Assembly: GCA_019243975.1 (NCBI GenBank)
Contig: JAFATL010000570.1
Location: 1 to 27,286, forward strand
From: Actinomycetota bacterium
GTDB taxonomy: Bacteria > Actinomycetota > Acidimicrobiia > Acidimicrobiales > JAFATL01
Direction of reading: 5' to 3'
Length of the DNA stretch: 27,286 nt
The notes under the pieces were generated by a model. The model was not told the DNA's origin and made no database searches. It saw only the letters and a program-made list of their open reading frames with translations. The position numbers and the translations under genes were made by a program. Positions 1,587 to 24,164 of this stretch are shown piece after piece (position 1 is the first letter of the stretch; each line of letters begins with the position of its first letter).

Positions 1587-2366
1587 CTACTCGCCCGCGG
1601 GCTTGGCCATCACCTGCGTCGTATCGAGCGGCGGCGGACCGGCCGTCGTGCCGCCGTCGATGGGCAGGAGGACACCGGTGACCTGGGCGGCGCGGTCGCT
1701 GGCCAGGAACACCGCCGCGTTGGCCACGTCGGTGGGTTTGCCGAGTCGCGGCAGCGGCTGCATCTTGGCCACGATCGACTTGGTGTCGAAGGCGGCGTTG
1801 ATGGCCGTCGCGATGTTCCCGGGTGCGATCACGTTGACGCGAATCCCGCGCTCGGCCAGTTCGATGGCCGCGCACTTGGTGAAGTGGGTGACGCCGGCCT
1901 TGGCCGCCCGATAGGTCTGCAGGCCGACGCCGGGGACGAGGCCCGCGATCGACGTCACGTTGATGATCGAGCCGCCCTCGCCCATGCGCTTGGCCGCCTG
2001 CTGGGTGCCGACGATGACGCCGAACAGGTCGACGCCCATCACCTTGACGAAGTCGCGGAAGTCGTCGTCCATCAGCCGCCGGAACGACGAAGCGATGCCG
2101 GCGTTGTTGACCATCACGTGCACGGCCCCGAACCGATCAACGGCCGCATCGACAGCCGCGCTGACGCTGGCGGTGTCGGACACATCGCAGTGCTCGAAGG
2201 CGGCCGCCTCGCCCAAGGACGCCGCCACCTCCTTGCCCGTGCCGTCGTCGACGTCGGCGATCACCACGCGCGCCCCCTCGGCGACGAACGCCTCGGCCAT
2301 GGCCCGGCCGATGCCGTTGGCCCCGCCGGTGATGATCCCTACCTTTCCGTCCAGCTCGTGCGCCAC
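1587..2366 (-). CDS. Short-chain dehydrogenase/reductase (classical SDR)
   Basis: ITGGANGIG, NNAG and YRAAK motifs. GTG 2366 is preceded by a GGAGAGGGAG SD-like tract. Confidence 0.93.
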   Translation of the reverse strand: MAHELDGKVGIITGGANGIGRAMAEAFVAEGARVVIADVDDGTGKEVAASLGEAAAFEHCDVSDTASVSAAVDAAVDRFGAVHVMVNNAGIASSFRRLMDDDFRDFVKVMGVDLFGVIVGTQQAAKRMGEGGSIINVTSIAGLVPGVGLQTYRAAKAGVTHFTKCAAIELAERGIRVNVIAPGNIATAINAAFDTKSIVAKMQPLPRLGKPTDVANAAVFLASDRAAQVTGVLLPIDGGTTAGPPPLDTTQVMAKPAGE

Positions 2367-2383
2367 TGTCTCCCTCTCCGTTC

Positions 2384-2713
2384 CTATGGCTCGCGGATGC
2401 GGTCTAGTCGAGCAGAGCCGGTGTCGACGGGCAGCGGCTGCTGCCACACCTCGATCGGGTACGACACGAGGGCGAAGGAGAACAACAACTGCAGCAATCG
2501 CTCGGCGTCTTCAGGCATGGCGTCCAGGGCGAAACCGTCGCAGTACCGAATCGCCGCCTCGGCCCGCGGGAAGCAGGCGTCGTAGAACGCCTGCAGGTCC
2601 TCCATCGTCGTGGCCAGACGCCGCTCCCACCGCTCCGGCTCGGTCGCCAAGCACCACGTGAGCGCAAACGGTTCGAGGTCGGCAAACTCGCCCGGCAGCA
2701 GCGCCGCGCTCAT
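2384..2713 (-). CDS. 109-aa protein of unknown function, translationally coupled to the Rieske oxygenase
   Basis: MSAALLPGEFADLEPFALTWCLATEPERWERRL...QAFYDACFPRAE... ATG 2713 overlaps the upstream TGA (ATGA). It is the only coding-like part of the 681-aa track ORF. Confidence 0.8.
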   Translation of the reverse strand: MSAALLPGEFADLEPFALTWCLATEPERWERRLATTMEDLQAFYDACFPRAEAAIRYCDGFALDAMPEDAERLLQLLFSFALVSYPIEVWQQPLPVDTGSARLDRIREP

Positions 2714-3969
2714 CGGCTCGTTCCCGCGCTCTCGTAGGCGGCGACGTAGTCGGCCACCGTCTTGTGGAAGTGACGCACGAGGATCTCCTGGTCGTTGAGG
2801 GGGAAGCTGGCGCACGCGCGCGACTCGAGGCCCAGCTGGGTGCCGTCGAGGGTGCCGGCGTCCTGCAGGGCGTACTCCTTCACCGTGATGGCGGCGTACT
2901 CGCGTGCGAGCCGCTCCCGTGCCGTCGTCGCCGGGGTGAACCACAGATCGGCTTCGAACACGTGGGTGTTGTACGACGTCGGCCAGAACCGGTAGGTGAG
3001 GTACCAGTTGCGCTCGTAGATGAGGAGCTCGAAGTTGGGGAAGATCTGAAAGTTGTCGATCCCCCACCGCTTCACGCCTCCGGGATTCACGCCCGCCAGC
3101 GCGCGGTCGATGGTTGGTGCCTCCCACGGCCCCATGTTCCCGCTGCGCAGCAGCGCCTCGGTCGGGTACAGGTGCTCCTCCGGGAAGAGGTGCTTGTGCG
3201 ACCCGCTCGTACTCACGACGCGGTGGGGTCCGTCGAGTTGGTAGTGGGCCGCTTCGAACGTGGCTTCCGGATTGCGGTAGCTCGGTCCCAGCTGCTGCGT
3301 GTGCAGCGGGGGCACGTGGTAGTACTCCTGGAAGGCGTCGATGAACACCTTCCAGTTGCTGTTGTTCTCGGCCCGGAACGTGTAGCGCTCGGTCATGGCG
3401 TCGAAGGGGTATTCCTCCAGCGCCCCCACCATCGGCCCGAGGTACTCCCGCAGCGACTGGCGCGGCGTCTCGGCCAGGTTCACGAAGATGAAGCCGGCCC
3501 ACACCTCGCAGTGCACGGGGACCAGGCCCAGCTCCGACTTGTCGATGCCGAAGAACTCCTCTTCCTGGTGCACGTACACGCACCCGCCGTCGAGGCCGTA
3601 GCGCCAGCCGTGGTACTTGCACGCGAACTGGCGGGCCACGCCGCACGCCTCCTGCGTGGGCTTCGACGACCACACCAGCTTGTTGCCTCGATGGCGGCAC
3701 ACGTTGTGGAACGCGTGCACGGCACCGTCCATGTCGCGCGTCACGAGCACCGACGTGCGGGCGGCCACGATGTCCTTGGTGAACCACGCACCGTTGCGGG
3801 GCAGGTCGTCGACGCGGCCGACGCTCAGCCACGTCTGGCGGAAGATGGCGTCGCGCTCGAGCTCGTAGAAACGGGGCGAGATCGAGTCCTCGAACGACAC
3901 CGGCCCCGTCCCCAGGTCGGGGTAGTGCTCGGTCCAGGTTCCTTCGGCTGGTCGCGGGAATGAGGTCAC
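2710..3969 (-). CDS. Rieske non-heme iron oxygenase alpha subunit
   Basis: Rieske ligands CRHRG...CKYHGW. Mononuclear Fe motif DAFQEYYHVPPLH plus C-terminal QDAGTL. GTG start. Confidence 0.95.
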   Translation of the reverse strand: MTSFPRPAEGTWTEHYPDLGTGPVSFEDSISPRFYELERDAIFRQTWLSVGRVDDLPRNGAWFTKDIVAARTSVLVTRDMDGAVHAFHNVCRHRGNKLVWSSKPTQEACGVARQFACKYHGWRYGLDGGCVYVHQEEEFFGIDKSELGLVPVHCEVWAGFIFVNLAETPRQSLREYLGPMVGALEEYPFDAMTERYTFRAENNSNWKVFIDAFQEYYHVPPLHTQQLGPSYRNPEATFEAAHYQLDGPHRVVSTSGSHKHLFPEEHLYPTEALLRSGNMGPWEAPTIDRALAGVNPGGVKRWGIDNFQIFPNFELLIYERNWYLTYRFWPTSYNTHVFEADLWFTPATTARERLAREYAAITVKEYALQDAGTLDGTQLGLESRACASFPLNDQEILVRHFHKTVADYVAAYESAGTSR

Positions 3970-13448: not shown

Positions 13449-13868
13449 TTAGCGCTGGCCTGACGGCACCACCGCCGGCTGCGCCAACGCGGCGATGGTG
13501 ACGCCCTGCAGGACGGTGCCGATGGCTTGGCCGACCGACTGCCATACCTCATCGAGTAGCGCCGCGCCGCCGAGGCTGCGCGGCGCGATCGGTGGGTCCC
13601 GCGCCTCGAGGGGGCCGTCTATGGCCGTGACCACGTCTGCGAGCGTGATCGAGGTCGCGGGGACGGCAAGGCGCCAACCGCCGCCGGGGGAGCCTCGCTG
13701 CGACCGAAGCAGGCCGCTGCGGCGGAGGTCGTTGAGAATGCGGCCCAGGAAGGCCTTCGGCAGTGATTGGGCTGCGGCGATCTGATCGCACGTGCGGCCT
13801 TCACCGTTGGCGCCCGCAAGCTCGACCATGGCTCGGATGGCGTACTCACTCTTGGCGGAGATCAACAT
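13449..13868 (-). CDS. Rrf2-family transcriptional regulator without Fe-S cysteine ligands
   Basis: MLISAKSEYAIRAMVEL..RSQRGSPGGGWRLA..ITLADVVTAIDGPL. Only one Cys, located in the HTH region. Confidence 0.9.
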   Translation of the reverse strand: MLISAKSEYAIRAMVELAGANGEGRTCDQIAAAQSLPKAFLGRILNDLRRSGLLRSQRGSPGGGWRLAVPATSITLADVVTAIDGPLEARDPPIAPRSLGGAALLDEVWQSVGQAIGTVLQGVTIAALAQPAVVPSGQR

Positions 13869-13878
13869 CGACGGCCCA

Positions 13879-14796
13879 TCACACGAGGTTCGGCACCAGC
13901 CGCGCCGCCACCTCGGTGGCGCCCCACAGACAGGCGACCACGACCGGCACGCTGGCCAGCAACGTAGGACGACTCCCCCACCGCCCGTACGCCCACGCGG
14001 CCGCTGCAAGCGTCACCACAAGGGCGGCCAGCCAGAGCGCGAGGGGCACGGCCGCGCGCGGATCGCCGCGCATCGCCGCTTCGACCGAAGGCAAGCGCCG
14101 TACTGGCGCCGCGCCCGTTCGTGGTTGGGCGGGTCCCGCCAGCAGCGCGTCGACGAACACGGTGTGGCGTTCCCATCCGCCGGTGAGGTTGTCGCTTCCC
14201 TCCGAGGTGACGAGCGTGAGGCGAGCCCCGCCGACAGGGAGCGGCGTCGGAAGATCGTCGCCGTCGCGGCGGACCCGTTCCACCCGGTACCGGAACGTGC
14301 CCTGGCCGGTGACCGCGTCGATGATGGCGCCCCTGTGCAGGTGTGCCACCGACGCGAAGGGCGCGCCGAAGGCGACGCTTCGGCCCATCAGGACCGACAC
14401 CCCCGGCTGCCCCGGCAACGCCGTGTCGCGGCGATGTCCGGGGCCGGCCGTGAGGACACCCGACGACGTGCCCTCCACCACGACCTCGTCGCCGATGCCA
14501 ATGCTCGGTACGCGCAAGAACGCAACCGGCGCGCCGACTCGAATGTGGCCGCCGATGGGCGACGTCTGGCGCGCCAGTTGCTCACGCAGCGTCGAGTGCA
14601 GCTCGTGCTGGCTCCGCCCTTCCTGGATCCGACCAAGCAAGCGGCCGTAGGCGAAGCCCCACAACGCCAGGCCGCTCACCGTCGCCAGCAGACAGGCGGC
14701 CACCGCGGCCGGGCGAGGCAGCGCCACGTTGCGGCGCTGCAGCCAGACCGCGTCGGTAGAGGAGCCAGCCGCGCTCGCGACGGGGATCGACGTCAC
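13879..14796 (-). CDS. Sortase-fold membrane protein with substituted catalytic residues (pseudo-sortase)
   Basis: LRVPSIGIGDEVVVEGTS..GPGHRRDTALPGQPGVSVLMGRS..FGAPF..GTFRYRV..LTLVTS. One N-terminal and two C-terminal hydrophobic helices. GTGA overlap with the upstream gene. Confidence 0.85.
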   Translation of the reverse strand: MTSIPVASAAGSSTDAVWLQRRNVALPRPAAVAACLLATVSGLALWGFAYGRLLGRIQEGRSQHELHSTLREQLARQTSPIGGHIRVGAPVAFLRVPSIGIGDEVVVEGTSSGVLTAGPGHRRDTALPGQPGVSVLMGRSVAFGAPFASVAHLHRGAIIDAVTGQGTFRYRVERVRRDGDDLPTPLPVGGARLTLVTSEGSDNLTGGWERHTVFVDALLAGPAQPRTGAAPVRRLPSVEAAMRGDPRAAVPLALWLAALVVTLAAAAWAYGRWGSRPTLLASVPVVVACLWGATEVAARLVPNLV

Positions 14797-17537
14797 CGCG
14801 CCGCCTGCAGCCGGCCCAGGACGTACACCACCAGTGACGCGATCCCGCTGCCGACTCCGAGCAGCAGCAGCGCGGGCAAGACGAACCCCGCCACGTGGGA
14901 GAGGACGCCGAGCGTCTTGCCGATGACGGCGCCGATCACTCCGGGGTGTTGCCCGGGAGCCGCCGGCGGCGGCAACTCGATGGCGCTGGTGAGCGGAGCC
15001 GTGCCCAACTGGTGGATCGCGGCCAGCGGCGACGCGGGCAAACCGGTGGACACGGCATCGTCGGCTCCGGACGTTCCGGCTCCCGCAGAAGACCCATCCG
15101 ATCCGGCTCCGGCCAGCGCGGTCAGCACCGGGACATCCCCGCTCTGCGTGTCGACCGCGTCGGCCGCCGCGAGGGTGTACTTCGACAAGGCGCCCAGGTC
15201 GTTGCCGGCGGTCATCGGAAGATAACCGTCGGGCAAGGTGCCCACCACGGAACCAGGCGTTTGCCCGTCGCCCACAACGAACCGCAGGAGTTGCGCGTAG
15301 GCGTGTGCGTCCTCAGCCGGTAGGCCCGTCGTCGGTACCTGCGCGTAGACGACCATCGTTCCCGGATAGGCGGCCGCTCCCCCAGGAGCGGTACGCAACG
15401 CGTCGTAGGGGATCGGCCACGTCTGGTTCACCGGGTCGTTGGTGAGCAACGCGGCAGCCGCGTGCAGTGAGTCGTTCGTCGGGGCCACGAACGAGCGGCC
15501 GTCCGCCGACGTGAACGCCGTGGGCGCCGACGACGCGACCTGGGTCTGCAGCGACGCCACATCGAGCCCGTAGCGACGGGCGTCGGCCAGGGCGGTCACG
15601 CCCAGCATGAAGCGGAAGCCCGGCGTCTGCCTACCCACGGCCACCAGCTTCTCGCCGTCGCTCGTTCCCTCGGCCACCTGCTGACAGACCGTCTGTGAGT
15701 TGGCCAGGGCGAACTCGACGTCGAGGGCGATCGGCGCCAGGTGAGGCAGGGGCGCAGCCACGAGGGGCAGGAATGGAACGGGGTTGTGGAAGAGGCAGTC
15801 GTTCGTGTCGGACGCGTAGAGCTTGGGCGGTTGGAAGGAGTCGAGCAGGGGCCACGAGTCCTTCGGGAGGGCGATGCCGCGGTAGTTGGGGTTGACGACC
15901 ATGCCCCAGGGGTCGGCCGACCCATCCAGCCACGCCCGGGCTTCGGGGTCGGCGTTGATGTACGCGGTGAGCGCGTTCATGACGTCGGAGTCACTGGAGA
16001 GCGCCAGCAGGGTCGACGCGCTCTGCGACGCCGGTACCCCGTGAGCGATACCGGGATTGAGCGCCTGGAACTCGGGGTCCTGCGATATGTCGAGCGGGTT
16101 GTGACTGAGGGCGGCGTACTCCTGCTTGATGCCGTTGATGGCCGGATACGACTGGGTCAGCAGCTTGGCCAACAGACGTGGCGTGAGCTTGAGCGATGCC
16201 ACCCGATGCCCGGTGGCGTCGTCGACCGAGAAGGCGATGGCGAAGCCGGTGACCCCGACCGGGGCGCTCACCACTGGCTTGGAGAAGCCTCCGTCGGGAA
16301 CGTCGCTGGACAGCGCCGCTTCGATGCCCCCCGACTCGAGCAGGTTGCGCGCCTCGGGCTCGCCTGTCTGCACGTGCTTGACCGTGAACAGCTTCGGGTC
16401 GAGACAGAAGTGCGGAAGCCATTGGGTGGCGGCCTGCGTCATCAGCTCCGAGCCGTACAAGTCGACACCTGCCTTGGCACCGACGACGTCGCACGCGTTC
16501 GACGCCGGCGCGAATTGCAACGGCACGGTGATCCGGTTCCGCCAGTTCGAGCTCGACCACCACAGGGCTCCGCTCACGGCGAGGTCTTCACGCCCGGCCG
16601 GCACCACGACCTGCCCGGGCTTGAACTGGCCCGTGGCCTGGCACAGGTTGGCGGCGGTGGTCGCAGGGTCGCCCGGCGCCGGGCGATCTGCCGGCGGCAG
16701 GTCTGCGGCCGCGACGTCGCAGCTGATGCCCATCACCGGCACGATGACGAGTGAGCACGCCACCTGTTGGGAGCAACCGAGCGACGCATTGTTCTCCGCA
16801 GTCCACACGTCGAACTTGGCGCTCCCCGTACCGTCCGCATTGGTTACGCCATAGGTCGTGTTGCTCGGAAGCGAGAGACCGCCGACGTTGGCCGACTCCG
16901 GTGCCATCCCCGCACACCCGCCCGATCCGCCCGGGTACGTCTTGCCGGCCGGCGTGCGGAACGGCACCCAGTGCTCGACGGGCGCAGGCGTGAAGCACGC
17001 CTGCGGCCGGGTGTCGGGCGCGCCCACCAGTGCGGTGCGTTGCCCGGCCGGCGCGTAGCGGTCGACGCGGAAAGGCGGGAAGGCAGTGTTGAACGAGTCC
17101 TGATAGCGCTCCCGAGCGGCGGCCGTCCAGCACGTCGTCGGGTCGAGCCGCTGGTTGGACGGTGCATCGGCGCTGTCGGTGCCCCAGCACTCGAGGAGCA
17201 CGACCGGATACTCCTCTTCACTGGCTGCGGCGGAGTTCTGATCAGCCACCAAGCCGCCCGTGGGATGAGCACCGGACCACGACACGTCGATCTGCTGGAA
17301 GTTGCGCAGGTCCTTGGTCTGACTGACAGCCACCGAAACGTTGCGCGTGTCGACGGTCTGATCACCGCCGTTGACGAGGTGGATCCGGGTCGCGGTCACG
17401 TGACCCGTGAACGCGGAGCCGCTGTCGTCGGCGTTGGACGGGTAGCCCGACCAGGCGACGGCCGACAACGCCAGGCCCAACCCGACGAGCACGGGAACGA
17501 TGCGCTGGGCTCGGCCGCGGGGCAGCACGTGGCTCAT
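14793..17537 (-). CDS. 914-aa exported Cys-rich protein with a degenerate PstS-like binding-protein region and a C-terminal membrane anchor
   Basis: Signal peptide (LVGLGLALSAVAWS..SNA). DLYGSELMTQAATQW and AAYPGTMVVYA resemble PstS-fold segments. 12 Cys. C-terminal TM FVLPALLLLGVGSGIASLVVYVL. Confidence 0.75.
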   Translation of the reverse strand: MSHVLPRGRAQRIVPVLVGLGLALSAVAWSGYPSNADDSGSAFTGHVTATRIHLVNGGDQTVDTRNVSVAVSQTKDLRNFQQIDVSWSGAHPTGGLVADQNSAAASEEEYPVVLLECWGTDSADAPSNQRLDPTTCWTAAARERYQDSFNTAFPPFRVDRYAPAGQRTALVGAPDTRPQACFTPAPVEHWVPFRTPAGKTYPGGSGGCAGMAPESANVGGLSLPSNTTYGVTNADGTGSAKFDVWTAENNASLGCSQQVACSLVIVPVMGISCDVAAADLPPADRPAPGDPATTAANLCQATGQFKPGQVVVPAGREDLAVSGALWWSSSNWRNRITVPLQFAPASNACDVVGAKAGVDLYGSELMTQAATQWLPHFCLDPKLFTVKHVQTGEPEARNLLESGGIEAALSSDVPDGGFSKPVVSAPVGVTGFAIAFSVDDATGHRVASLKLTPRLLAKLLTQSYPAINGIKQEYAALSHNPLDISQDPEFQALNPGIAHGVPASQSASTLLALSSDSDVMNALTAYINADPEARAWLDGSADPWGMVVNPNYRGIALPKDSWPLLDSFQPPKLYASDTNDCLFHNPVPFLPLVAAPLPHLAPIALDVEFALANSQTVCQQVAEGTSDGEKLVAVGRQTPGFRFMLGVTALADARRYGLDVASLQTQVASSAPTAFTSADGRSFVAPTNDSLHAAAALLTNDPVNQTWPIPYDALRTAPGGAAAYPGTMVVYAQVPTTGLPAEDAHAYAQLLRFVVGDGQTPGSVVGTLPDGYLPMTAGNDLGALSKYTLAAADAVDTQSGDVPVLTALAGAGSDGSSAGAGTSGADDAVSTGLPASPLAAIHQLGTAPLTSAIELPPPAAPGQHPGVIGAVIGKTLGVLSHVAGFVLPALLLLGVGSGIASLVVYVLGRLQAAR

Positions 17538-19174
17538 GCCTCCTCCCGCCGGCGTCGCAACAGCCGGGGCAGGACGGTCGGGGTGAGCACCACCGCCAGC
17601 AGCAGCAGGATCGACAGCGCGCCGAAGAGGTGCGTGGTGGCGCCGGCCAGAACGGGAACGATCCCGGCCGGTCGGTCGGCCGAGCCGGTGCGGCTGCCCA
17701 CGCCGGTGGTCGGCGCCACGGTGCCATCCGCCGCGGTCGGCAACGCCACCTCGTTCAGGGCGGACGTGCCCGTCGAGCCCACGCCGTTCGCGCCGGTGCC
17801 CGCGGCAGTGGCGCGAGCCGCCCCGCCTCCGCCGGTCGGGTTCGTACTGCTCTGACCGGCCGCGATGGCCGCGGTGAGCGCGTCACCCCGGCCGGCGGCC
17901 GCGTCGGCGCAGGGACCGGCACCGGAGGCGTCGCACGCCGGGGGCTGCGGCGCAACTTCGGCCAGGTAGTTCCGGTCGGGCTGACCGGCCACGAACGTCG
18001 GGTTGTGACACGTGGAGACGTCTCGCGACGTGAGGTCGACGTTGCCATCGGCGTCGTGCAACTTGCCGATCTGCTCGAAGCCGGCCTGCACCAGGTTGAT
18101 GGGAAGCGGCGAGTAGCCGATCGGCCCCATTTCCTTCTGGCCGTCGCAGATCGAGTAGTAGAGGAAGTCGGCCATGGTTTGGCGCTTGGCCGTCGTCATC
18201 TTCTGGTCGTCGGCCGCGGTCGGCACCACGAAGTACGAGTACGACGACAACGGGTAGGTGCGCGGGTCGCTGTACTTGTAGACCTGCGTCAGGTCCTGCA
18301 ACAGGTAGTCGGGCGAGGACTTGTCTTCGTTGATGATCGCTTGGGTCAGCGCCACCGCCACGTTGAATTGCGAGGGCAGCGTGAAGTAGCCCGCCGCGTT
18401 GCCGACCTTCGCGACCGGGTAGTTCTTGCCCAGCGCGTAGGAGTACTCGTCGTAACCGATAGCGCCGTTGGCCGCCGACGACGCAATGAAGTTCATCACC
18501 CCGTCGGAACCGCTCTGGGCGATGGCATTGCCCTTGCGCGGGTAGTACTCGGTGAGACCAGCGTGCCCCGCAAACGGGCGCCAGATGTCCGGGTACTGCT
18601 TGTCGAGGTAGTCGGTGAAGTGGGCGGAGGATCCCGAGCCCTCGGAGTGCACGACCGGGATGATCGGCAACGACGGGAGCGCACGGCCGTTGTTGTCGGC
18701 CGTGATGGCCGGGTCGCTCCAGTCGGTGACCTGGTTCGTGAAGATGAGCGCCAGCGTGCGCCCCGACAGGCGGAGGTTGCGCACCAACTGCCCGCGCACC
18801 CGTACCTGATAGGGGAACGACGTTCCGCCCGACACGATCGGCAGGTATGCGTAGTCGCGACCTTGGGCGGTATCGGCGTCGCCGGTGAGCGGGTCGGTGC
18901 CGCGGTAGCCGATCTCAGTGACCGCGAAGTCGCTGGTGCGGTACCCGAAGTCCTTCCTGCCCTGGGCGCTGCCGCTGGCGGTGAAGACGACCTGCAACCC
19001 GTTCGCCTGCACGTCGGCGATCCACTGGTTCATGGCGTTGGCGCTCCAGCTCGACCCCGACCCCTGGATGAGCGCATGGCTGGATGCGGCATGGGCAGAT
19101 CCGGCGGCCGCCGCACCGGTGCCGACGCACAGCCCCATGGCAACCGCCACCCGAACCAGCCTGCCGAGCTTCAC
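17534..19174 (-). CDS. pstS: PstS-like phosphate-binding-fold protein with a C-terminal linker, TM anchor and basic tail
   Basis: IQGSGSSW, SGSAQGRKDF, VVHSEGSGSS, GAIGYDEYSYA, RTYPLSSYSY. SPI-type signal (AHA/A). Tail LSILLLLAVVL..RRRR. Confidence 0.82.
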   Translation of the reverse strand: MKLGRLVRVAVAMGLCVGTGAAAAGSAHAASSHALIQGSGSSWSANAMNQWIADVQANGLQVVFTASGSAQGRKDFGYRTSDFAVTEIGYRGTDPLTGDADTAQGRDYAYLPIVSGGTSFPYQVRVRGQLVRNLRLSGRTLALIFTNQVTDWSDPAITADNNGRALPSLPIIPVVHSEGSGSSAHFTDYLDKQYPDIWRPFAGHAGLTEYYPRKGNAIAQSGSDGVMNFIASSAANGAIGYDEYSYALGKNYPVAKVGNAAGYFTLPSQFNVAVALTQAIINEDKSSPDYLLQDLTQVYKYSDPRTYPLSSYSYFVVPTAADDQKMTTAKRQTMADFLYYSICDGQKEMGPIGYSPLPINLVQAGFEQIGKLHDADGNVDLTSRDVSTCHNPTFVAGQPDRNYLAEVAPQPPACDASGAGPCADAAAGRGDALTAAIAAGQSSTNPTGGGGAARATAAGTGANGVGSTGTSALNEVALPTAADGTVAPTTGVGSRTGSADRPAGIVPVLAGATTHLFGALSILLLLAVVLTPTVLPRLLRRRREEA

Positions 19175-20223
19175 CGAGCCACCTGCCGGTTGCGGGCGGC
19201 GAAACGGGCCGCCGCAAAGAGGGCGAGCACGAGGACGACGAGGAGAGCGGCGGCGCCGTAGCCGCGGGCGATGTACTGCGGCTCACCGCTGCGGACCGAG
19301 GCGAAGATGAACAGCGGCAACGAGTTCATCGGGTTGTGGAAGGGGTTCTTGTTGAAGAACGTCGAGGCACCCGACACGATCAGCAGGGGCGCCGTCTCGC
19401 CGGCGATACGCGCCACCCCGAGGATGAGCGAAGTCGCCAGTCCGGGGCGAGCCGTCGGCAGCACGACACCCCGCACCGTCCGCCAGTGCGACGCGCCCAG
19501 GGCCAGGCCTGCCTCGCGCAACCCGTCGGGCACCAGCTTGAGGACCACCTCCGCCGAGCGGGCCACGACCGGCGTCATCGTCACCGCCAGGGCCAACGAG
19601 ACGGCAAACCCGTCGCGCTCCCAGTGAAAGCCGATGATCAGCACGGTGTAGACGAACAGACCTGCCAGCACGTCGGGCAGCGCCGTCATGGCTTCGATCA
19701 CCGTGCGCACAACGTTCGTCAGGCGGCCGCCCACCTCGGTCATGTACACGGCTGTGGCGATGCCAAGCGGCAGGGCGATGAGGACGGCGATGCCGATCTC
19801 GATCCCTGATCCGATGACGGCGTGCAGCACCCCGCCCTGACTCAGCGGCGACGTCGGCCGCACGCCCGACATGTCGTCGACGTAGAAGTTGAGGTGGTGC
19901 AGGGCGGGCCAGCCCCGCACAAAGACGAACCCGATCGTCACCACCAGAGCCGCCCCCACCAGGGCGGCCCCGCCGGTCACGACCGCAGCGACGAGGCGGT
20001 CGGCCACCACGGTGCCCGGGTTGGAGAAGGCGCTCAACGCCACGTAGACGCCGAGGAACGCCAGGTACCACGCCACCGCAAAACCAATGGCGCCGCTGGT
20101 CGGCAGCACCCGCAGGTACAGCAGCCACGTCAGTGCGAGGGAACCGACGCCGGCGCCGACCACCGAGGCCACATCGTCGAGGTGGCGGGTGGAGATGCGC
20201 CGGGGGACGTCGACGTCGATCAC
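19171..20223 (-). CDS. pstA: PstA-like ABC permease with an N-terminal hydrophobic extension
   Basis: GGVLHAVIGS, ALPLGIATAVYMTE, EAA loop VPDGLREAGLALGASHWRTV, GVARIAGETAPLL. Confidence 0.88.
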   Translation of the reverse strand: MIDVDVPRRISTRHLDDVASVVGAGVGSLALTWLLYLRVLPTSGAIGFAVAWYLAFLGVYVALSAFSNPGTVVADRLVAAVVTGGAALVGAALVVTIGFVFVRGWPALHHLNFYVDDMSGVRPTSPLSQGGVLHAVIGSGIEIGIAVLIALPLGIATAVYMTEVGGRLTNVVRTVIEAMTALPDVLAGLFVYTVLIIGFHWERDGFAVSLALAVTMTPVVARSAEVVLKLVPDGLREAGLALGASHWRTVRGVVLPTARPGLATSLILGVARIAGETAPLLIVSGASTFFNKNPFHNPMNSLPLFIFASVRSGEPQYIARGYGAAALLVVLVLALFAAARFAARNRQVAR

Positions 20224-20224
20224 G

Positions 20225-21226
20225 TCAGAGCTCCGCCCCTGCGCCGCTGCGGCTGCGGTTCACGAACACGGCCGCGACCGTGTTGACCCCCAGGGTCATG
20301 AGGAAGAGAACGAAGCCGGCAGCCAACAGCGCCGACAGCTGCGAGGTGGTCGCCTCGCCAAAGCGCCCGGCGATGAGAGCTGAGGTCGTCATCGTGCCGA
20401 CCGTCAGCACGTGGAACTTGATCTCGAACGCCGGCGAGATGATGAGCAGGACGGCGATCGTCTCGCCCAGGGCCCGGCCCAGAGCGAGCATCGTGCCGCC
20501 GATGATCCCGCGCCGCCCGAACGGCAACACGACGGTGCGGATCACCCCCAACCGGGTGGCGCCGAGAGCGGATGCAGCCTCTCGCTCGCCGAGCGGCGTC
20601 TCGGCGAACACGCCGCGCATGATTGCGCACGCCAGCGGGATCACCATCAGCGACACCGCAATGCCGGCGATGAACGCCGAAGCCGTGTACTTCGAGGGCG
20701 CCCACGCCGCCGCGTTGGGATCGGTGTCGACGCGGAAGATCGGCACCCAGGAGAAGTACTGGCTCAGCCAGCGGGCGATGTAAATCGCGTGGGGCTGCAG
20801 GAAGGCGAAACCCAGCAGCCCGTAGATGATGCTGGGCACGGCCGCCATCAAATCGACGAGGGCGACCAGGCCGGCCCGGATGCGCGCCGGCGCGTACTCA
20901 CTTATGTACAGCGCGGTAGCGAGTGCCAGGGGGAACCCGATCGCGAGGGCGATGACGGCCACCTCGACCGTGCCGACGAGCACGGCGGCGAGGCCGATGA
21001 TGTCGCGCTCGGGCAGCCACCGGCTCTCGGTGAAGAAATGGAGGCCGTAGCGGTGCAGCGTCGGGAGACCCTGGTAGCCGAGGAACAGGCCAATGGCGAG
21101 GATGAGGGCGAGCACGGCCATGCCCACGCCTCGGGCGCCGTGATGGAAGACGCGATCGGCCTTCGTCAGGCCCGGGTCGACGACGCGAGGCTCGTCGAAC
21201 GCAGGCGAGGGCAACACATGGGCCAT
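20225..21226 (-). CDS. pstC: PstC-like ABC permease
   Basis: FFTESRWLP, LYISEYAP, DLMAAVPSIIYGL, EREAASALGATR, LGRALGETIAV. Confidence 0.9.
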   Translation of the reverse strand: MAHVLPSPAFDEPRVVDPGLTKADRVFHHGARGVGMAVLALILAIGLFLGYQGLPTLHRYGLHFFTESRWLPERDIIGLAAVLVGTVEVAVIALAIGFPLALATALYISEYAPARIRAGLVALVDLMAAVPSIIYGLLGFAFLQPHAIYIARWLSQYFSWVPIFRVDTDPNAAAWAPSKYTASAFIAGIAVSLMVIPLACAIMRGVFAETPLGEREAASALGATRLGVIRTVVLPFGRRGIIGGTMLALGRALGETIAVLLIISPAFEIKFHVLTVGTMTTSALIAGRFGEATTSQLSALLAAGFVLFLMTLGVNTVAAVFVNRSRSGAGAEL

Positions 21227-21245
21227 GACGCGTGGGTCTTCGCGC

Positions 21246-22079
21246 TCAGCCGAATCGGCCGTGGACGTAGTCGGACGTCCGCTGGTCTTGAGGCTGCTCG
21301 AACACCTGCCGCGTCGAGCCCATCTCGACGACCACCCCGGGCTCGCCCTCGGCGGCGAGGAAGAACGCGCACTGCTGCGACACGCGCACGGCCTGCTGCA
21401 TGTTGTGGGTAACGATCACCACGGTCATGTCGTGGGCCAGCTCGCCGATCGTCCGCTCGATGTGGCGGGTCGAGGTGGGGTCGAGCGCGGAGCACGGCTC
21501 GTCCATGAGCAGCACGTCCGGATCGACGGCCAACGAACGGGCGATGCACAAGCGCTGCTGCTGACCGCCCGAGAGCGCCCCGCCCGGCCGGTCGAGCCGG
21601 TTCTTCACCTCGTCCCACAGGCCCGCACGGCGCAGGCTTCGCTCGGCGATCTCGGCCCGCTCCCCGCGACTGACGCGCTGGCCCGTGAGCTTGAGCCCGG
21701 CGGTGACGTTGTCGGCGATCGACATGGCGGGGAACGGGTTCGGCTTCTGGAACACCATGCCGATGCGCCGACGCGTCTCGGTGACGCGCTGACTTCCGTC
21801 GTAGACGTCATGCCCGTCGAGCAGGACCTCACCGGCCATCTTCGCCATCGGCGTCGACTCGTGCATGCGATTGAGGATGCGGAGGAACGTCGACTTGCCG
21901 CACCCCGATGGCCCGATGAGCGCAGTGACGCTGGCGTTCGGCATCGACATCGACACCCGCTCGAGCACTTTGTGGGTGCCGAACCACGCCGAGACGTTGC
22001 GCGTCTCGAGATGGGCCGCCGTGCCTGCGGGCGCGACGGCGGGCGGCGCCGGTTCGGCGAGAACGGAGGTCGCGGTCAT
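21246..22079 (-). CDS. pstB: PstB-like ABC ATPase
   Basis: Walker A GPSGCGKST, LNRMHE, MVFQKPNPFP, LSGGQQQRLCIAR, LLMDEPCSALDP, IVTHNMQQA. ATG 22079 overlaps the upstream TGA. Confidence 0.95.
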   Translation of the reverse strand: MTATSVLAEPAPPAVAPAGTAAHLETRNVSAWFGTHKVLERVSMSMPNASVTALIGPSGCGKSTFLRILNRMHESTPMAKMAGEVLLDGHDVYDGSQRVTETRRRIGMVFQKPNPFPAMSIADNVTAGLKLTGQRVSRGERAEIAERSLRRAGLWDEVKNRLDRPGGALSGGQQQRLCIARSLAVDPDVLLMDEPCSALDPTSTRHIERTIGELAHDMTVVIVTHNMQQAVRVSQQCAFFLAAEGEPGVVVEMGSTRQVFEQPQDQRTSDYVHGRFG

Positions 22080-23329
22080 ACCCGGTGCCGCCAGGCCGGG
22101 ACCCGCCGCCGGGCCCAGCCGACGACCGCCGCGCCCAACAGGAACACGCCCAGGCCTGCGCCCGCGGTGCCGAGGATCTGGCGACCCGTTCGGGGCAGGG
22201 CGCCCGACCCCGACGAGGATGACGACCCCGACGTGCCGCCCGTTGACGATGCCGCCACGGTGAACGGGTACGACGCGACGCGACTGGCACCGGTGAGGGT
22301 GATGGTGTGGGCACCGGCGTCGAGGCTCGTCGGCAGGGTGATCGACGCCGTCACCTTCCCCGCCGCGTCGGCCGTGACCGAACCCAGGCTTACGGTCGCC
22401 GAGTGGGCCGCCACGGCGACCGACTCGTTGGGCGTGAATCCGGATGCCGTGACCGTGATCTTTTGGCCCGGCGTCAGGGTGGTGTTCGCCGCCAGCGGGC
22501 TGCCGGATGCGTCGGTGGCGGTCGCGGTGGTGGTCGTGGTGGTGGTGGTGGTCGACCCGCCCACCGCCGTTGTGGTCGTGGTGGACCCTCCCGCCACCGT
22601 CGTCGTGGTAGAGCCGCCGGCCACGGTGGTGCTCGTGGAACCGCCGGACGCAGTGGTGGTGGTCGAACCGCCCGCCACGGTCGTCGGCGTCGTGGTCGGT
22701 GGCGTACTGCCGGGCGCCGGATACACCTGCGTCCACGTGGATCCCGTGATCTGGATGACGGTTTCGAAGTACTGCGAGCCCGGCGCCTGGCCCGGTCCCG
22801 ACGTCTTCAGGCGCAGCTGGTACAGCCCCTGATAGGGGTCACCGCTGGGCGCCGTATTGGGGAAGTCGCCTTGCAACTGCGCCAACGTCTCGTCCGACGA
22901 AGTCAAGCTCACCAGCGGCAGCGGCGAGCTCTTCAGGGCCGCGGGCGCGTTCGAGTTCGGATAGGTCGTCGAGCCCGACATCTGCTCGCTCGACCACGCC
23001 CCGCTGGGCTGCCCGCTCTTGGGCAGCGCGCCGAAGAGCGTGGCCTTGTTGTCGCCCGAACGGCCCGCCCCGCTGGCCTGCGCGAAGGCGGCGAAGGGAG
23101 CGTCACCCACGTTGCCGGTTGTGACGGCTGCGCCACTGGCGTTGTAGAAGGTGAGGAAGCCGCTCGAGTTGGGATCGGGCTCGAACGGCGGCGCCGATGC
23201 CGCGCCCGCGGGGCCGATGTCCGACAGCGTGGCCACCGCGCCGGCGACCAGCAGGCCCACCGCCAGCGCCAGGCGCACGGCCGTGCCGGTCCGGCGCCAG
23301 CGGGTCTTCGTCGGAATGGAGTTCGTCAT
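22076..23329 (-). CDS. LPXTG-anchored surface protein: unnamed N-domain, Thr-rich stalk, Ig-like domain, LPRTG-TM-basic tail
   Basis: Signal peptide. Ig-like PGQKITVTASGFTPNESV..ADAAG..SITLP..GAHTITLTG. GALPRTG followed by a hydrophobic stretch and RRR. ATG 23329 has SD AGGA. Confidence 0.87.
   Translation of the reverse strand: MTNSIPTKTRWRRTGTAVRLALAVGLLVAGAVATLSDIGPAGAASAPPFEPDPNSSGFLTFYNASGAAVTTGNVGDAPFAAFAQASGAGRSGDNKATLFGALPKSGQPSGAWSSEQMSGSTTYPNSNAPAALKSSPLPLVSLTSSDETLAQLQGDFPNTAPSGDPYQGLYQLRLKTSGPGQAPGSQYFETVIQITGSTWTQVYPAPGSTPPTTTPTTVAGGSTTTTASGGSTSTTVAGGSTTTTVAGGSTTTTTAVGGSTTTTTTTTTATATDASGSPLAANTTLTPGQKITVTASGFTPNESVAVAAHSATVSLGSVTADAAGKVTASITLPTSLDAGAHTITLTGASRVASYPFTVAASSTGGTSGSSSSSGSGALPRTGRQILGTAGAGLGVFLLGAAVVGWARRRVPAWRHRV
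22513..22704 (-). repeat. Five imperfect GGSTTT(T) coding repeats (Thr-rich stalk)
   Basis: TVAGGSTTTTASGGSTSTTVAGGSTTTTVAGGSTTTTTAVGGSTTTTTTTTT. Confidence 0.85.
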
Positions 23330-23336
23330 GCCAGTC

Positions 23337-24164
23337 CTATCGATGTCGTGAATGGAGAAAAGGGGTGCGCCGTCGCCTGCGGGCGATGAACGCGGCGCCG
23401 AGCACCGCCGGCACCGCGAGAAGTGCCCACGGGACGCCATGTCGCGTACGAGACGGGGCGGGACGCGCCGTGTCCGCCTTGGTCGTGGGCGCCGCCAGCT
23501 GGCCGGTCGTCAGCCCGGGGAGTGTCGTGCTCGTGGCCTGCTGCTCCTGGATCGCCTGGGCGACGGACTTCGAGGGGTCGGCCGACGGCAGTAGCTCGGC
23601 GATCGAGGTGGCCTGGCCGACGTCGCAGGCCACATCGCCGCCGCGCACGACCTCCCACCGCGCTCCCGACACGCGGATGTCTGTCGCTGCGTACGTCTGC
23701 GTGTAGGGCGGCTGGTCGGGGGCACCCAGGTAGAGGCGGAGCTGCAACAGCCCGTTCCACCGGGGCGGGTAGCTGTCGACGAACTCGCGCAGCGGCGCGT
23801 CCGCCGCGACGAGCTTGCCGATGGGGTGCGCCGGATTCGTGTACCGCGTCGAGGCGCCGAGGGCGTCGCCGCTCCACTCCCCCGGCGCGACTCCCGGCCG
23901 GGGCTGGAACGCGAACAGCGTCGCCGTGCGGCCGTCGCCCGCGTAGTCCGCCGGCGCGGCCGTCGAGCTCACGGCCGTACCCACGAAAGGCCGGTCGTCG
24001 AGTGAGCCCGCGTGCACCGCGTGCCCACTCGCATCGCACAGGCCGAGGTACCCGTTCACCTTGGCGTCGGAGTACGGCACCGACGCCGCGTCCGCCCGTG
24101 CGCCGAGCGACACCACGGCGACGACCGACGTGGCCAGCGCGGCGCCGGCCCGAAACCATCTCAT
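23337..24164 (-). CDS. Exported protein with the same unnamed domain, a linker and a C-terminal TM plus RRRRR tail
   Basis: Signal peptide (ARA/DAA). Domain alignable by eye to that of 22076-23329. VPWALLAVPAVLGAAFIA-RRRRR. Confidence 0.82.
   Translation of the reverse strand: MRWFRAGAALATSVVAVVSLGARADAASVPYSDAKVNGYLGLCDASGHAVHAGSLDDRPFVGTAVSSTAAPADYAGDGRTATLFAFQPRPGVAPGEWSGDALGASTRYTNPAHPIGKLVAADAPLREFVDSYPPRWNGLLQLRLYLGAPDQPPYTQTYAATDIRVSGARWEVVRGGDVACDVGQATSIAELLPSADPSKSVAQAIQEQQATSTTLPGLTTGQLAAPTTKADTARPAPSRTRHGVPWALLAVPAVLGAAFIARRRRRTPFLHSRHR

What the first reader, a model, noticed from the sequence alone, without database searches (positions are those of the whole stretch)
13879..14796. 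Sortase with catalytic His replaced by Arg, Cys replaced by Ser, and two extra C-terminal helices
Seen: VLMGRSVAFG (~14367-14392) where active enzymes have IAGHRTTYG, and LTLVTS (~14202-14220) instead of TLxTC. The RxxVxA Arg position reads T, with an Arg two residues earlier. The surrounding fold motifs are intact and the ORF is undisrupted. Established: sortase transpeptidation needs the His-Cys-Arg triad. Inference: a maintained pseudoenzyme acting as a sorting-signal receptor, chaperone or membrane scaffold; a Ser-nucleophile variant is less likely.
Basis: partly seen in the sequence, partly recalled or inferred. Interest (0 to 1): 0.8.

Follow-up and report, generated by a model that had tools for sequence, protein, structure and literature searches.

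The report
Dead sortase in phosphate-transporter-like operon
This gene encodes a membrane protein shaped like a sortase (the enzyme that staples proteins to Gram-positive cell walls) that has lost all three catalytic residues, yet is conserved across many actinobacteria as a fixed part of a phosphate-transporter-like gene cluster, so it probably binds or organises partner proteins instead of cutting them.

Summary
ORF 13879-14796 (-) is a 305-aa, three-helix membrane protein with a class-E-type sortase fold. It has Arg at the catalytic His position (R139), Ser at the Cys position (S198) and Thr at the Arg position (T212).

- **Not a private decay.** None of 246-265 relatives has Cys at the nucleophile column (Ala and Ser about equally). 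The His column is R/K/H, and only 6 of 246 have any Cys in the domain.
- **Selection.** dN/dS (median 0.26) matches that of the neighbouring pst-like genes.
- **Context.** In 62/62 loci with enough flank it follows a 914-aa-protein homologue, and in 55/62 also pstC, pstA and a tethered PstS-like gene. In 401 sampled Actinomycetota genomes, 12/12 with the 914-aa homologue have it nearby.
- **C-terminal helices.** They are real but not special. Active class E sortases, including one in this genome, carry the same two helices and an LLPxN tail, resembling the published fused SafA-like domain.

A canonical LPXTG protein is present in only 33/62 clusters, so a pure LPXTG-receptor role is not general. 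The most likely role is a non-catalytic adaptor for the cluster's tail-anchored proteins (inferred). The scan found this family at least seven times before in other genomes. No paper describing it was found.

The parts
13879..14796 (-). Pseudo-sortase ORF (305 aa, GTG start, TGA stop at 13879-13881)
14793..14796 (-). GTGA: 4-nt overlap between the stop of the 914-aa gene and the start of the pseudo-sortase (translational coupling inferred)
14647..14712 (-). TM1 / signal-anchor (residues 29-50), N-terminal part of the long helix 28-75
   Evidence: topology inferred from the positive-inside rule and sortase homology
14137..14535 (-). Extracytoplasmic sortase-fold domain (residues 88-220)
   Evidence: Pfam PF04203 residues 94-199; AF2 strands 90-219; all top Foldseek PDB matches are sortases, e.g. 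5go6 TM 0.70 and 4d70 TM 0.73
14422..14445 (-). GPGHRRDT motif (residues 118-125). GPGH is shared with active class E sortases. The Tyr that follows GH in class E is Arg here.
14380..14382 (-). R139 at the catalytic His position (family: R 247, K 12, H 6 of 265)
14203..14205 (-). S198 at the catalytic Cys position (family: A 125, S 107, T 13, V 9, other 11; no Cys)
14161..14163 (-). T212 at the catalytic Arg position (family: T/V/A/L/P/S, R in 5 of 265)
14149..14151 (-). D216, a family-specific Val-to-Asp switch on strand beta8 (92% Asp; Val in active relatives)
13978..14061 (-). TM2 (helix 246-273), running out to in, followed by a short Arg-containing cytoplasmic turn
13897..13974 (-). TM3 (helix 275-300), running in to out, with near-invariant P284 and W291
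13882..13899 (-). C-terminal LVPNLV (family consensus LLPNLx; 229 of 265 end in LPNxx). Active relatives end in LLP[AS]Nx.
14793..17537 (-). 914-aa secreted, C-terminally anchored protein. Its homologue lies upstream of the pseudo-sortase in 62 of 62 loci and is fused to it in one natural protein (P0133).
14814..14924 (-). Tail of the 914-aa protein: IGKT (14913-14924), a degenerate L[GAP]xT-like motif, then a TM helix (14814-14882) and a basic end
17534..19174 (-). PstS-like binding protein with a C-terminal TM helix and RRRR tail (172 bits, below the TIGR00975 cut-off of 205)
19171..22736 (-). PstA-, PstC- and PstB-like ABC transporter genes of the same operon
22184..22198 (-). LPRTG of the operon's one canonical sorting signal (protein 22076-23440, start uncertain)

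Best explanation
The gene encodes a catalytically dead descendant of a class E sortase. It is kept as a fixed, non-enzymatic membrane subunit of a paralogous Pst-like ABC uptake cluster. Shown: the sortase fold is intact, the His-Cys-Arg triad is gone in the whole family, the gene is under purifying selection, and it travels with pstC, pstA, a tail-anchored PstS-like protein and a ~900-aa tail-anchored protein. Inferred: TM1 places the sortase domain outside the membrane. The two C-terminal helices, inherited from active class E sortases and built like a fused SafA module, pack against TM1 and keep the protein in the membrane. The former substrate groove now carries a conserved Arg at the His position and an Asp on its floor. 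It holds, without cleaving, the juxtamembrane segment of the cluster's C-terminally anchored proteins. The gene directly upstream always ends in 'short motif, TM helix, basic tail': a canonical LPXTG/LAXTG in one cluster layout and a degenerate motif in the other. In this way it would position these binding proteins at the permease.
For: - Fold: Pfam Sortase above its cut-off; class E sortases are the best PDB sequence hits; AF2 model pLDDT 87; all top Foldseek hits are sortases.
- Triad lost family-wide: 0 of 265 have Cys at the nucleophile column; the His column is R 247, K 12, H 6; the Arg column varies. Only 6 of 246 have any Cys in the domain. By contrast 120 of 120 active relatives have H-C-R.
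- Origin: all active sequences lie on one side of a 100/99 branch.
- Selection: median dN/dS 0.26 in 16 within-genus pairs, against 0.15-0.36 for the operon neighbours.
- Synteny: 62 of 62 loci with 9.5 kb or more upstream hold a 914-like gene; 55 of 62 hold pstC+pstA+PstS-like+914-like on the same strand. In 401 sampled genomes, all 12 with a 914-like gene have a full-length pseudo-sortase on the same contig within about 8 kb, and a PstS546-like gene.
- Coupling: 4-nt start/stop overlap; one natural fusion of a 914-like protein to the pseudo-sortase, topologically consistent.
- Tails: 78 of 79 914-like and 70 of 70 PstS-like proteins end in a TM helix, mostly followed by basic residues. Conserved short motifs precede the helix: [LMVI][GAP]xT in 37 of 78 against 13.7 in shuffles, and Px[ED]L[AV] in 25 of 70 against 0.1.
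- C-terminal module: shared with active class E sortases. A SafA-like domain fused to class E sortases, and SafA binding to the sortase TM segment, are published (PMC9282373).
Against: - No direct evidence of binding: the only complex prediction (pseudo-sortase plus the 914-aa tail) gave no verdict.
- The tail motifs are only moderately conserved. The shuffle test does not correct for relatedness. This window's own PstS-like tail lacks the Px[ED]L[AV] motif.
- Placement of R139 and D216 in the groove is deduced from strand register, not measured on coordinates.
- Homology of the C-terminal module to SafA could not be tested: no Pfam or NCBIfam hit, and the motif is LPN, not FPW.
- The strong conservation of a basic residue at the His position and of a hydroxyl residue at 197 could also mean residual chemistry.
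Confidence: 0.6

Rival explanations
1. It is still an enzyme with non-canonical chemistry. A hydroxyl nucleophile (S198, or the invariant T/S197) would be assisted by the basic residue at position 139 and perhaps D216. It would process the tails of the cluster's anchored proteins.
For: - Position 139 is basic in 265 of 265 (R/K/H), and position 197 is T or S in 265 of 265.
- D216 is a 92% conserved family-specific switch.
- The earliest-branching relatives keep Ser at the Cys column and the third Arg in otherwise canonical motifs (AGRR, TS.P, ERLVVIA), and they also sit next to pst genes.
- An earlier scan note reports a Ser-for-Cys sortase family in Patescibacteria (unchecked).
Against: - The nucleophile column is Ala in about 40-47% of the family and V/L/G in others.
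- The Arg column is unconserved.
- T197 is also conserved in active sortases, where it is not the nucleophile, so its conservation is inherited.
- Arg is a poor general base (general enzymology; my knowledge).
Confidence: 0.12
2. It is a regulator or decoy of the genome's active class E sortase. It would pair with it through the shared membrane module, or compete for LPXTG/LAXTG signals. That would decide whether the cluster's LPXTG proteins stay in the membrane or are linked to the wall.
For: - The same genome has two canonical class E sortases, one with the same two-helix LLPxN module.
- The operon encodes an LPRTG protein.
- In the 'spaced' layout, 17 of 19 loci have an LAxTG/LPxTG protein ending 87-1218 nt upstream of the pseudo-sortase. 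The paralogous cluster in this genome has an LPLTG protein overlapping the pseudo-sortase start.
Against: - 29 of 62 clusters have no canonical LPXTG/LAXTG protein within 10 kb. The Cellulomonas (L001) and Pimelobacter/Nocardioides simplex (L004) clusters were read by eye and have none.
- The constant partners are the pst-like genes and the 914-like protein, not a sortase or an LPXTG protein.
Confidence: 0.12
3. It keeps only the second-substrate site of a sortase (lipid II or the peptidoglycan cross-bridge). It would tether or position the transporter complex relative to the cell wall, or bind an anionic wall or phosphate compound through its conserved arginines.
For: - Conserved basic residues near the former active site (R139, R122/R123, R176/R177, R192).
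- Constant association with a phosphate-type transporter.
Against: R192 is shared with active sortases.
Confidence: 0.08
4. It is a recently decayed sortase gene (private loss of function) with no role.
For: None beyond the missing triad.
Against: - Hundreds of relatives share the same substitutions.
- dN/dS is well below 1.
- The frame is intact.
- Synteny is conserved across several actinobacterial orders.
Confidence: 0.01

Closest known systems
Class E (housekeeping, LAXTG-specific) sortases of Actinobacteria, e.g. S. coelicolor SrtE1 (PMC5148588), S. avermitilis SrtE (5go5/5go6), C. diphtheriae SrtF (5uus)
   Same: - Same fold and N-terminal membrane anchor.
- They are the best sequence hits in the PDB, and NCBIfam ranks class_E_sortase first.
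- Shared motifs: VEG, GPGH, LPGQxG, GxPF and RLTL.
- The nearest active relatives share even the two C-terminal helices and the LLPxN end.
   Different: - His, Cys and Arg of the triad are all replaced.
- The Tyr after GH is Arg. I infer this is the conserved beta3/beta4-loop tyrosine of class E.
- The class E model scores 53 bits against a cut-off of 160.
- The gene sits in a pst-like operon, not beside safA or LAXTG substrates.
SafA, the small membrane protein that shields actinobacterial housekeeping sortase from signal peptidase, and the SafA-like domain fused to Bifidobacterium class E sortases (PMC9282373)
   Same: - A single helix running N-in/C-out, preceded by a conserved Pro and followed by a short conserved exoplasmic motif.
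- It is attached to the C-terminus of a class E-type sortase, and published SafA binds the sortase TM segment.
- Here TM3 has P284 before it and LLPNL after it, with TM2 as the return helix.
   Different: The motif is LPN, not FPW, and the Pro-to-motif spacing is 18 residues, not 25. Sequence homology could not be tested, and no function has been shown for the fused form.
SrtB in the S. aureus isd locus: a dedicated sortase encoded inside a nutrient-uptake operon with wall-anchored receptors and an ABC importer (my knowledge; analogy also drawn by earlier scan note e1-5284452)
   Same: A sortase-family gene embedded in an operon that combines surface-exposed binding proteins at different depths with an ABC importer.
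   Different: SrtB is an active Cys transpeptidase with an NPQTN substrate. Here the sortase is dead and most partners are membrane-tethered, not wall-linked.
Bacterial and eukaryotic pseudoenzymes that keep a binding groove (general concept)
   Same: Catalytic residues are lost, the fold and much of the groove-forming motifs are retained, and the gene is under purifying selection with a fixed genomic partnership.
   Different: No natural sortase pseudoenzyme was found in the searchable literature.

Membership tests
Sortase superfamily (Pfam PF04203 / MEROPS C60 fold) | Sequence match to the family model above the curated threshold | tested here: met
   44.6 bits against a gathering score of 26.6, residues 94-199
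Sortase superfamily (Pfam PF04203 / MEROPS C60 fold) | Sortase beta-barrel fold | tested here: met
   AF2 model pLDDT 87. All 50 listed Foldseek PDB matches are sortases; target-normalised TM 0.70-0.73 for 5go6 and 4d70.
Sortase superfamily (as an enzyme) | Catalytic Cys in the TLxTC motif | tested here: not met
   S198 here; 0 of 265 relatives have Cys at this column
Sortase superfamily (as an enzyme) | Catalytic His | tested here: not met
   R139 here; family R 247, K 12, H 6
Sortase superfamily (as an enzyme) | Catalytic Arg at the start of beta8 | tested here: not met
   T212 here; the column is T/V/A/L/P/S, with R in 5 of 265
Class E sortase (NCBIfam NF033747) | Score above the curated cut-off | tested here: not met
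   53.3 bits against a cut-off of 160
Class E sortase | Conserved Tyr in the beta3/beta4 loop used for LAXTG recognition (PMC5148588) | tested here: not met
   GH-Y in 5uus, 5go5 and both active sortases of this genome; GH-R here. That this Tyr is the one in the paper is inferred from its position.
Class E sortase | Nearest relatives by sequence and descent are class E | tested here: met
   Best PDB and NCBIfam hits are class E. On the tree the family joins the active class E clade through intermediate R/S forms.
Fused SafA-like C-terminal domain (PMC9282373) | C-terminal helix N-in/C-out with a conserved exoplasmic motif right after it | tested here: inconclusive
   The architecture fits (P284, helix 275-300, LLPNL). 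The motif differs (LPN vs FPW), and no sequence comparison with SafA was possible.
Fused SafA-like C-terminal domain | Binds the sortase TM segment and blocks signal-peptidase cleavage | not testable with these tools
   Needs two-hybrid and processing assays as in PMC9282373
Maintained pseudoenzyme | Catalytic residues lost across the family, not in one copy | tested here: met
Maintained pseudoenzyme | Purifying selection | tested here: met
   Median NG86 dN/dS 0.26 (0.08-0.40) in 16 within-genus pairs, within the range of the operon neighbours. dS is likely underestimated at this GC content, which affects all genes alike.
Maintained pseudoenzyme | Conserved genomic partnership | tested here: met

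The most novel reading that the evidence does not exclude
The sortase groove has been re-tooled into a non-covalent receptor for a new kind of C-terminal retention signal. The signal would be a short charged motif (P-T-[ED]-L-[AV]-[AS]-x-[RK] in the PstS-like proteins, L-[GAP]-x-T without the scissile Gly in the 914-aa proteins), followed by a TM helix and a basic tail. R139 (former His position) and D216 (groove floor) would read the charged residues. The cluster would then hold a 'sortase that holds instead of cuts', co-degenerated with its substrates. This would be a previously unknown way of assembling tethered binding proteins around an ABC importer.
Probability: 0.2. Interest if true: 0.8.

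Novelty: new variant of a known kind. Interest (0 to 1): 0.64.

Why it matters
Sortases are textbook cysteine transpeptidases and drug and biotechnology targets. A large, conserved, triad-less branch would be, as far as I could find, the first natural sortase pseudoenzyme. It is currently mislabelled in databases as 'sortase' or 'class E sortase', so annotation-based counts of sortases and predictions of anchored proteins in actinobacteria are inflated. Its fixed place in a second, divergent Pst-like system with membrane-tethered binding proteins points to an undescribed envelope uptake apparatus in soil and freshwater actinobacteria. It also offers a natural experiment on what a sortase groove can do without catalysis. 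The intermediate forms (His to Arg and Cys to Ser in otherwise canonical motifs), also next to pst genes, give an evolutionary series that can be tested biochemically.

Tried and rejected
- **Complex prediction.** Pseudo-sortase with residues 825-914 of the 914-aa protein gave no verdict (score 0.05, controls not run). It counts neither for nor against binding.
- **Pfam and NCBIfam scans of the C-terminal 70 residues** of this protein, an active relative and a Dactylosporangium relative gave only chance-level hits. SafA homology is therefore untested.
- **Literature searches** (sortase + pseudoenzyme; sortase-like / lacks catalytic cysteine; sortase + catalytically inactive + Actinobacteria + PstS; pseudosortase and variants) found no paper on a natural dead sortase. 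The A. missouriensis sortase paper (PMC13251363) concerns class E and F enzymes only.
- **dN/dS over all locus pairs** was rejected. The median of 0.63 reflects saturated or compressed dS at about 70% GC, so only within-genus pairs with dS below about 0.5 were used, with neighbouring genes as comparators.
- **LPXTG-receptor as the universal role** was rejected, because 29 of 62 clusters lack a canonical signal.
- **Alternative His/Cys pair** was rejected: the extracytoplasmic domain has no Cys, and the only two Cys are in TM1 and TM3.
- **One wrong-frame ORF** (from L094) entered the tree by mistake and was ignored.
- **Rrf2 as a conserved partner** was rejected: no tblastn hit to it in the 83 related loci.

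Full report
**The observation**

The ORF 13879-14796 on the minus strand is open and encodes 305 residues. Its GTG start overlaps the TGA of the upstream 914-aa gene by four bases (GTGA). An Rrf2 regulator gene starts 10 nt after its stop.

Pfam finds a Sortase domain above the curated threshold (44.6 bits against 26.6, residues 94-199). NCBIfam ranks class E sortase first, but far below its cut-off (53 against 160 bits).

Two alignments agree on the catalytic positions. One is the phmmer alignment to solved class E sortases (5uus, 5go5/5go6). The other is a MAFFT alignment with two canonical class E sortases of the same genome. They place:

- R139 of 'LMGRS' under the catalytic His of 'AGHR';
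- S198 of 'LTLVTS' under the Cys of 'LTLTTC';
- T212 under the catalytic Arg, with R210 two residues earlier.

An AlphaFold2 model built on 31 relatives is confident (pLDDT 87, pTM 0.80). It shows the sortase strands plus one long N-terminal helix and two C-terminal helices. Foldseek against the PDB returns only sortases, with class D and E catalytic domains superposing best (TM 0.70-0.73 by target).

**Not a private decay**

A word-indexed search found at least 334 relatives, and an exhaustive search of 50%-identity representatives found 201 clusters at E below 1e-30. A pattern scan of species-representative genomes found at least 574 encoding loci, and every titled record among the 80 loci returned is an actinomycete or Actinomycetota MAG.

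| Column (265 aligned relatives) | Residues |
|---|---|
| Nucleophile (Cys position) | Ala 125, Ser 107, Thr 13, Val 9, other 11; never Cys |
| His position | Arg 247, Lys 12, His 6 |
| Arg position | unconserved |

Only 6 of 246 full-length members have any Cys in the whole domain. This protein's only two Cys lie in TM1 and TM3, so an alternative His/Cys pair is excluded. By contrast, 120 of 120 active relatives of a canonical sortase from this genome have the full His-Cys-Arg triad.

On a maximum-likelihood tree all active sequences sit on one side of a 100/99 branch, which is compatible with a single loss. The sampling of active enzymes was narrow and the root is not fixed.

Nei-Gojobori dN/dS in 16 within-genus pairs has a median of 0.26. 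The operon neighbours give 0.15 (PstB), 0.19 (PstC), 0.22 (PstA), 0.26 (PstS-like) and 0.36 (914-like). The gene is therefore as constrained as the transporter it travels with.

**Surroundings**

On the same strand upstream lie a PBP-fold protein, two proteins of unknown family (one ending in a canonical LPRTG sorting signal), PstB-, PstC- and PstA-like genes, a PstS-like protein with a C-terminal TM helix and RRRR tail, and the 914-aa protein with a C-terminal TM helix. The earlier scan notes describe the same operon.

The partnership is general:

- **Loci with enough flank.** Among 62 related loci with at least 9.5 kb of upstream DNA, all have a 914-like gene. 55 have pstC, pstA, PstS-like and 914-like genes upstream on the same strand.
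- **Two layouts.** In 43 loci the 914-like gene abuts the pseudo-sortase, as here. In 19 loci (some Streptomyces, Plantactinospora, Cryobacterium) extra genes intervene and pstB follows directly.
- **Even sample of 401 Actinomycetota genomes.** A 914-like gene was found in 12. All 12 have a full-length pseudo-sortase on the same contig within about 8 kb, and a PstS546-like gene.
- **Natural fusion.** One protein (P0133, 1211 aa) joins a 914-like protein (55% identical) to a pseudo-sortase in a topologically consistent way.
- **This genome.** It has a canonical PstS elsewhere (325 bits), while the two PstS-like genes next to pseudo-sortases score below the family cut-off. These clusters are therefore additional, divergent Pst-like systems. 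The genome also has a second pseudo-sortase cluster.

**The two extra helices**

They are real, but they are not an innovation of the dead enzyme. A canonical class E sortase in this genome (locus L005) has the same two C-terminal helices and ends in RLLPANI. 119 of 120 of its active relatives end in LP[AS]Nx, and 229 of 265 pseudo-sortases end in LPNxx.

The positive-inside rule and the extracytoplasmic position of a sortase domain imply this path: TM2 runs out to in, a short Arg-containing turn lies in the cytoplasm, TM3 runs in to out, and the conserved LLPNL is exposed outside (inferred).

This matches the published SafA logic. SafA is a 52-residue N-in/C-out helix with a conserved exoplasmic motif. 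It binds the sortase TM segment and blocks signal-peptidase cleavage, and it occurs fused to the C-terminus of Bifidobacterium class E sortases (PMC9282373). The motif here is LPN, not FPW, and homology could not be tested, so this is an analogy.

**What it most likely does**

A pure LPXTG receptor is not general. Only 33 of 62 clusters contain a canonical LPXTG/LAXTG protein within 10 kb, and the two clusters read by eye (a Cellulomonas and a Pimelobacter/Nocardioides simplex genome) have none.

What is constant is that the cluster's large extracytoplasmic proteins end in a sorting-signal-like architecture without a cleavable motif. 78 of 79 914-like and 70 of 70 PstS-like proteins end in a TM helix, usually followed by basic residues. 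Short conserved motifs stand 10-17 residues before the helix, inside otherwise low-complexity linkers:

| Tail family | Motif | Observed | Shuffle mean |
|---|---|---|---|
| 914-like | [LMVI][GAP]xT | 37 of 78 | 13.7 |
| PstS-like | Px[ED]L[AV] | 25 of 70 | 0.1 |

The shuffles ignore relatedness. In the spaced layout, 17 of 19 loci have a genuine LAxTG/LPxTG protein ending just upstream of the pseudo-sortase.

Within the domain, most fold and groove motifs are shared with active enzymes. The family-specific switches are His to Arg at 139, Val to Thr at 110, Val to Asp at 216, and Arg for the class E Tyr after GH. By strand register, positions 216 and 212 lie on the same face of beta8 as the former active site (inference, not measured).

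I therefore favour a non-catalytic adaptor that holds the juxtamembrane tails of the tethered binding proteins at the permease. The pseudoenzyme status and the operon membership are shown. The binding step is inferred, and the one complex prediction gave no verdict.

**Rivals**

- **Residual chemistry.** Suggested by the universal basic residue at 139 and the hydroxyl at 197. Also suggested by early-branching relatives in five sampled genomes; the four whose sequence was read keep Ser at the Cys column within otherwise canonical motifs (two of them also keep the third Arg), and those four sit next to pstSCAB genes. However, Ala at the nucleophile column in nearly half of the family argues against catalysis through that position.
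- **Decoy or regulator of the active class E sortase.** Possible in clusters that carry LPXTG proteins, but it does not explain the clusters without them.
- **Wall or anion binding through the conserved arginines.** Could not be tested.
- **Simple decay.** Excluded.

**Novelty**

Databases label these proteins 'sortase', 'class E sortase' or 'sortase A'. Four literature searches found no description of a natural dead sortase, though the library misses most subscription journals. This scan has noted the same family at least seven times in other genomes, with the same reading.

- the C-terminal module is shared with active class E sortases, which links it to SafA;
- the intermediate R/S forms are also tied to pst genes;
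- selection was compared with the operon neighbours;
- the phyletic profiles of the 914-like gene, the PstS546-like gene and the pseudo-sortase match in an even genome sample;
- canonical LPXTG partners were counted (33 of 62 clusters).

Noticed in passing
L005:1285-2109 (+) (own genome, contig C363): A canonical class E sortase (AGHRTTYG, LTLTTC, triad intact) carries two extra C-terminal TM helices and ends in RLLPANI. 119 of 120 relatives, named Acidimicrobiia, Acidimicrobiales or Actinomycetota MAGs where a source names them, do the same. This looks like a widespread fused SafA-like module on active class E sortases.
   Followed up: partly
L007:1120-2040 (-) and L095 (own genome, contig C420): A second pseudo-sortase paralogue (306 aa, VAGRLSGFGGPF, RLILATADG, ends KLLPNLL) lies in a second Pst-like cluster of the 'spaced' layout. 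The order is PstS-like, 914-like, two Thr-rich proteins matching the window's LPRTG protein (the nearer one ends in LPLTG and overlaps the pseudo-sortase start by 4 nt), then pstB.
   Followed up: partly
L096-L099 (genomes G252, G033, G124, G077): Early-branching relatives have only His to Arg and Cys to Ser in otherwise canonical sortase motifs (AGRR; TS.P; ERLVVIA with the third Arg kept in two of them). They also sit next to pstS/pstC/pstA/pstB genes. They may be intermediates or a Ser-type variant.
   Followed up: partly
P0133 (metagenomic protein, 1211 aa): A natural fusion of a 914-like protein (55% identity over 925 columns) with a pseudo-sortase (residues about 938-1210). It could be a true fusion or a lost stop codon; there is only a single record.
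   Followed up: partly
C-terminal tails of PstS-like proteins in loci L003-L089; window 17534-17750: Many PstS-like tails carry P-T-[ED]-L-[AV]-[AS]-x-[RK] about 8-12 residues before the TM helix, and often a Glu inside the helix (…LELL…, …AELL…). This window's copy lacks both.
   Followed up: partly
Own genome contig C579:1382-2317 (+): A canonical PstS (325 bits, above the TIGR00975 cut-off) exists elsewhere, so the window's cluster is an additional, divergent Pst-like system whose ligand is unknown.
   Followed up: no
window 13449-13868 (-): The Rrf2 regulator gene 10 nt downstream of the pseudo-sortase has no counterpart in any of the 83 related loci (no tblastn hit), so it is a local addition and not part of the conserved cluster.
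   Followed up: partly
L006:1471-2202 (-) and 2218-3294 (-) (own genome, contig C769): A second canonical class E sortase without the C-terminal helices lies directly downstream of an LPRTG protein. This is a likely ordinary sortase-substrate pair that could also serve the window's LPRTG protein in trans.
   Followed up: no
L001:7201-9848 (Cellulomonas sp. KRMCY2): The 914-like gene is called as two ORFs (801 aa plus 81 aa carrying the TM anchor), which suggests a frameshift or sequencing error in that record.
   Followed up: no
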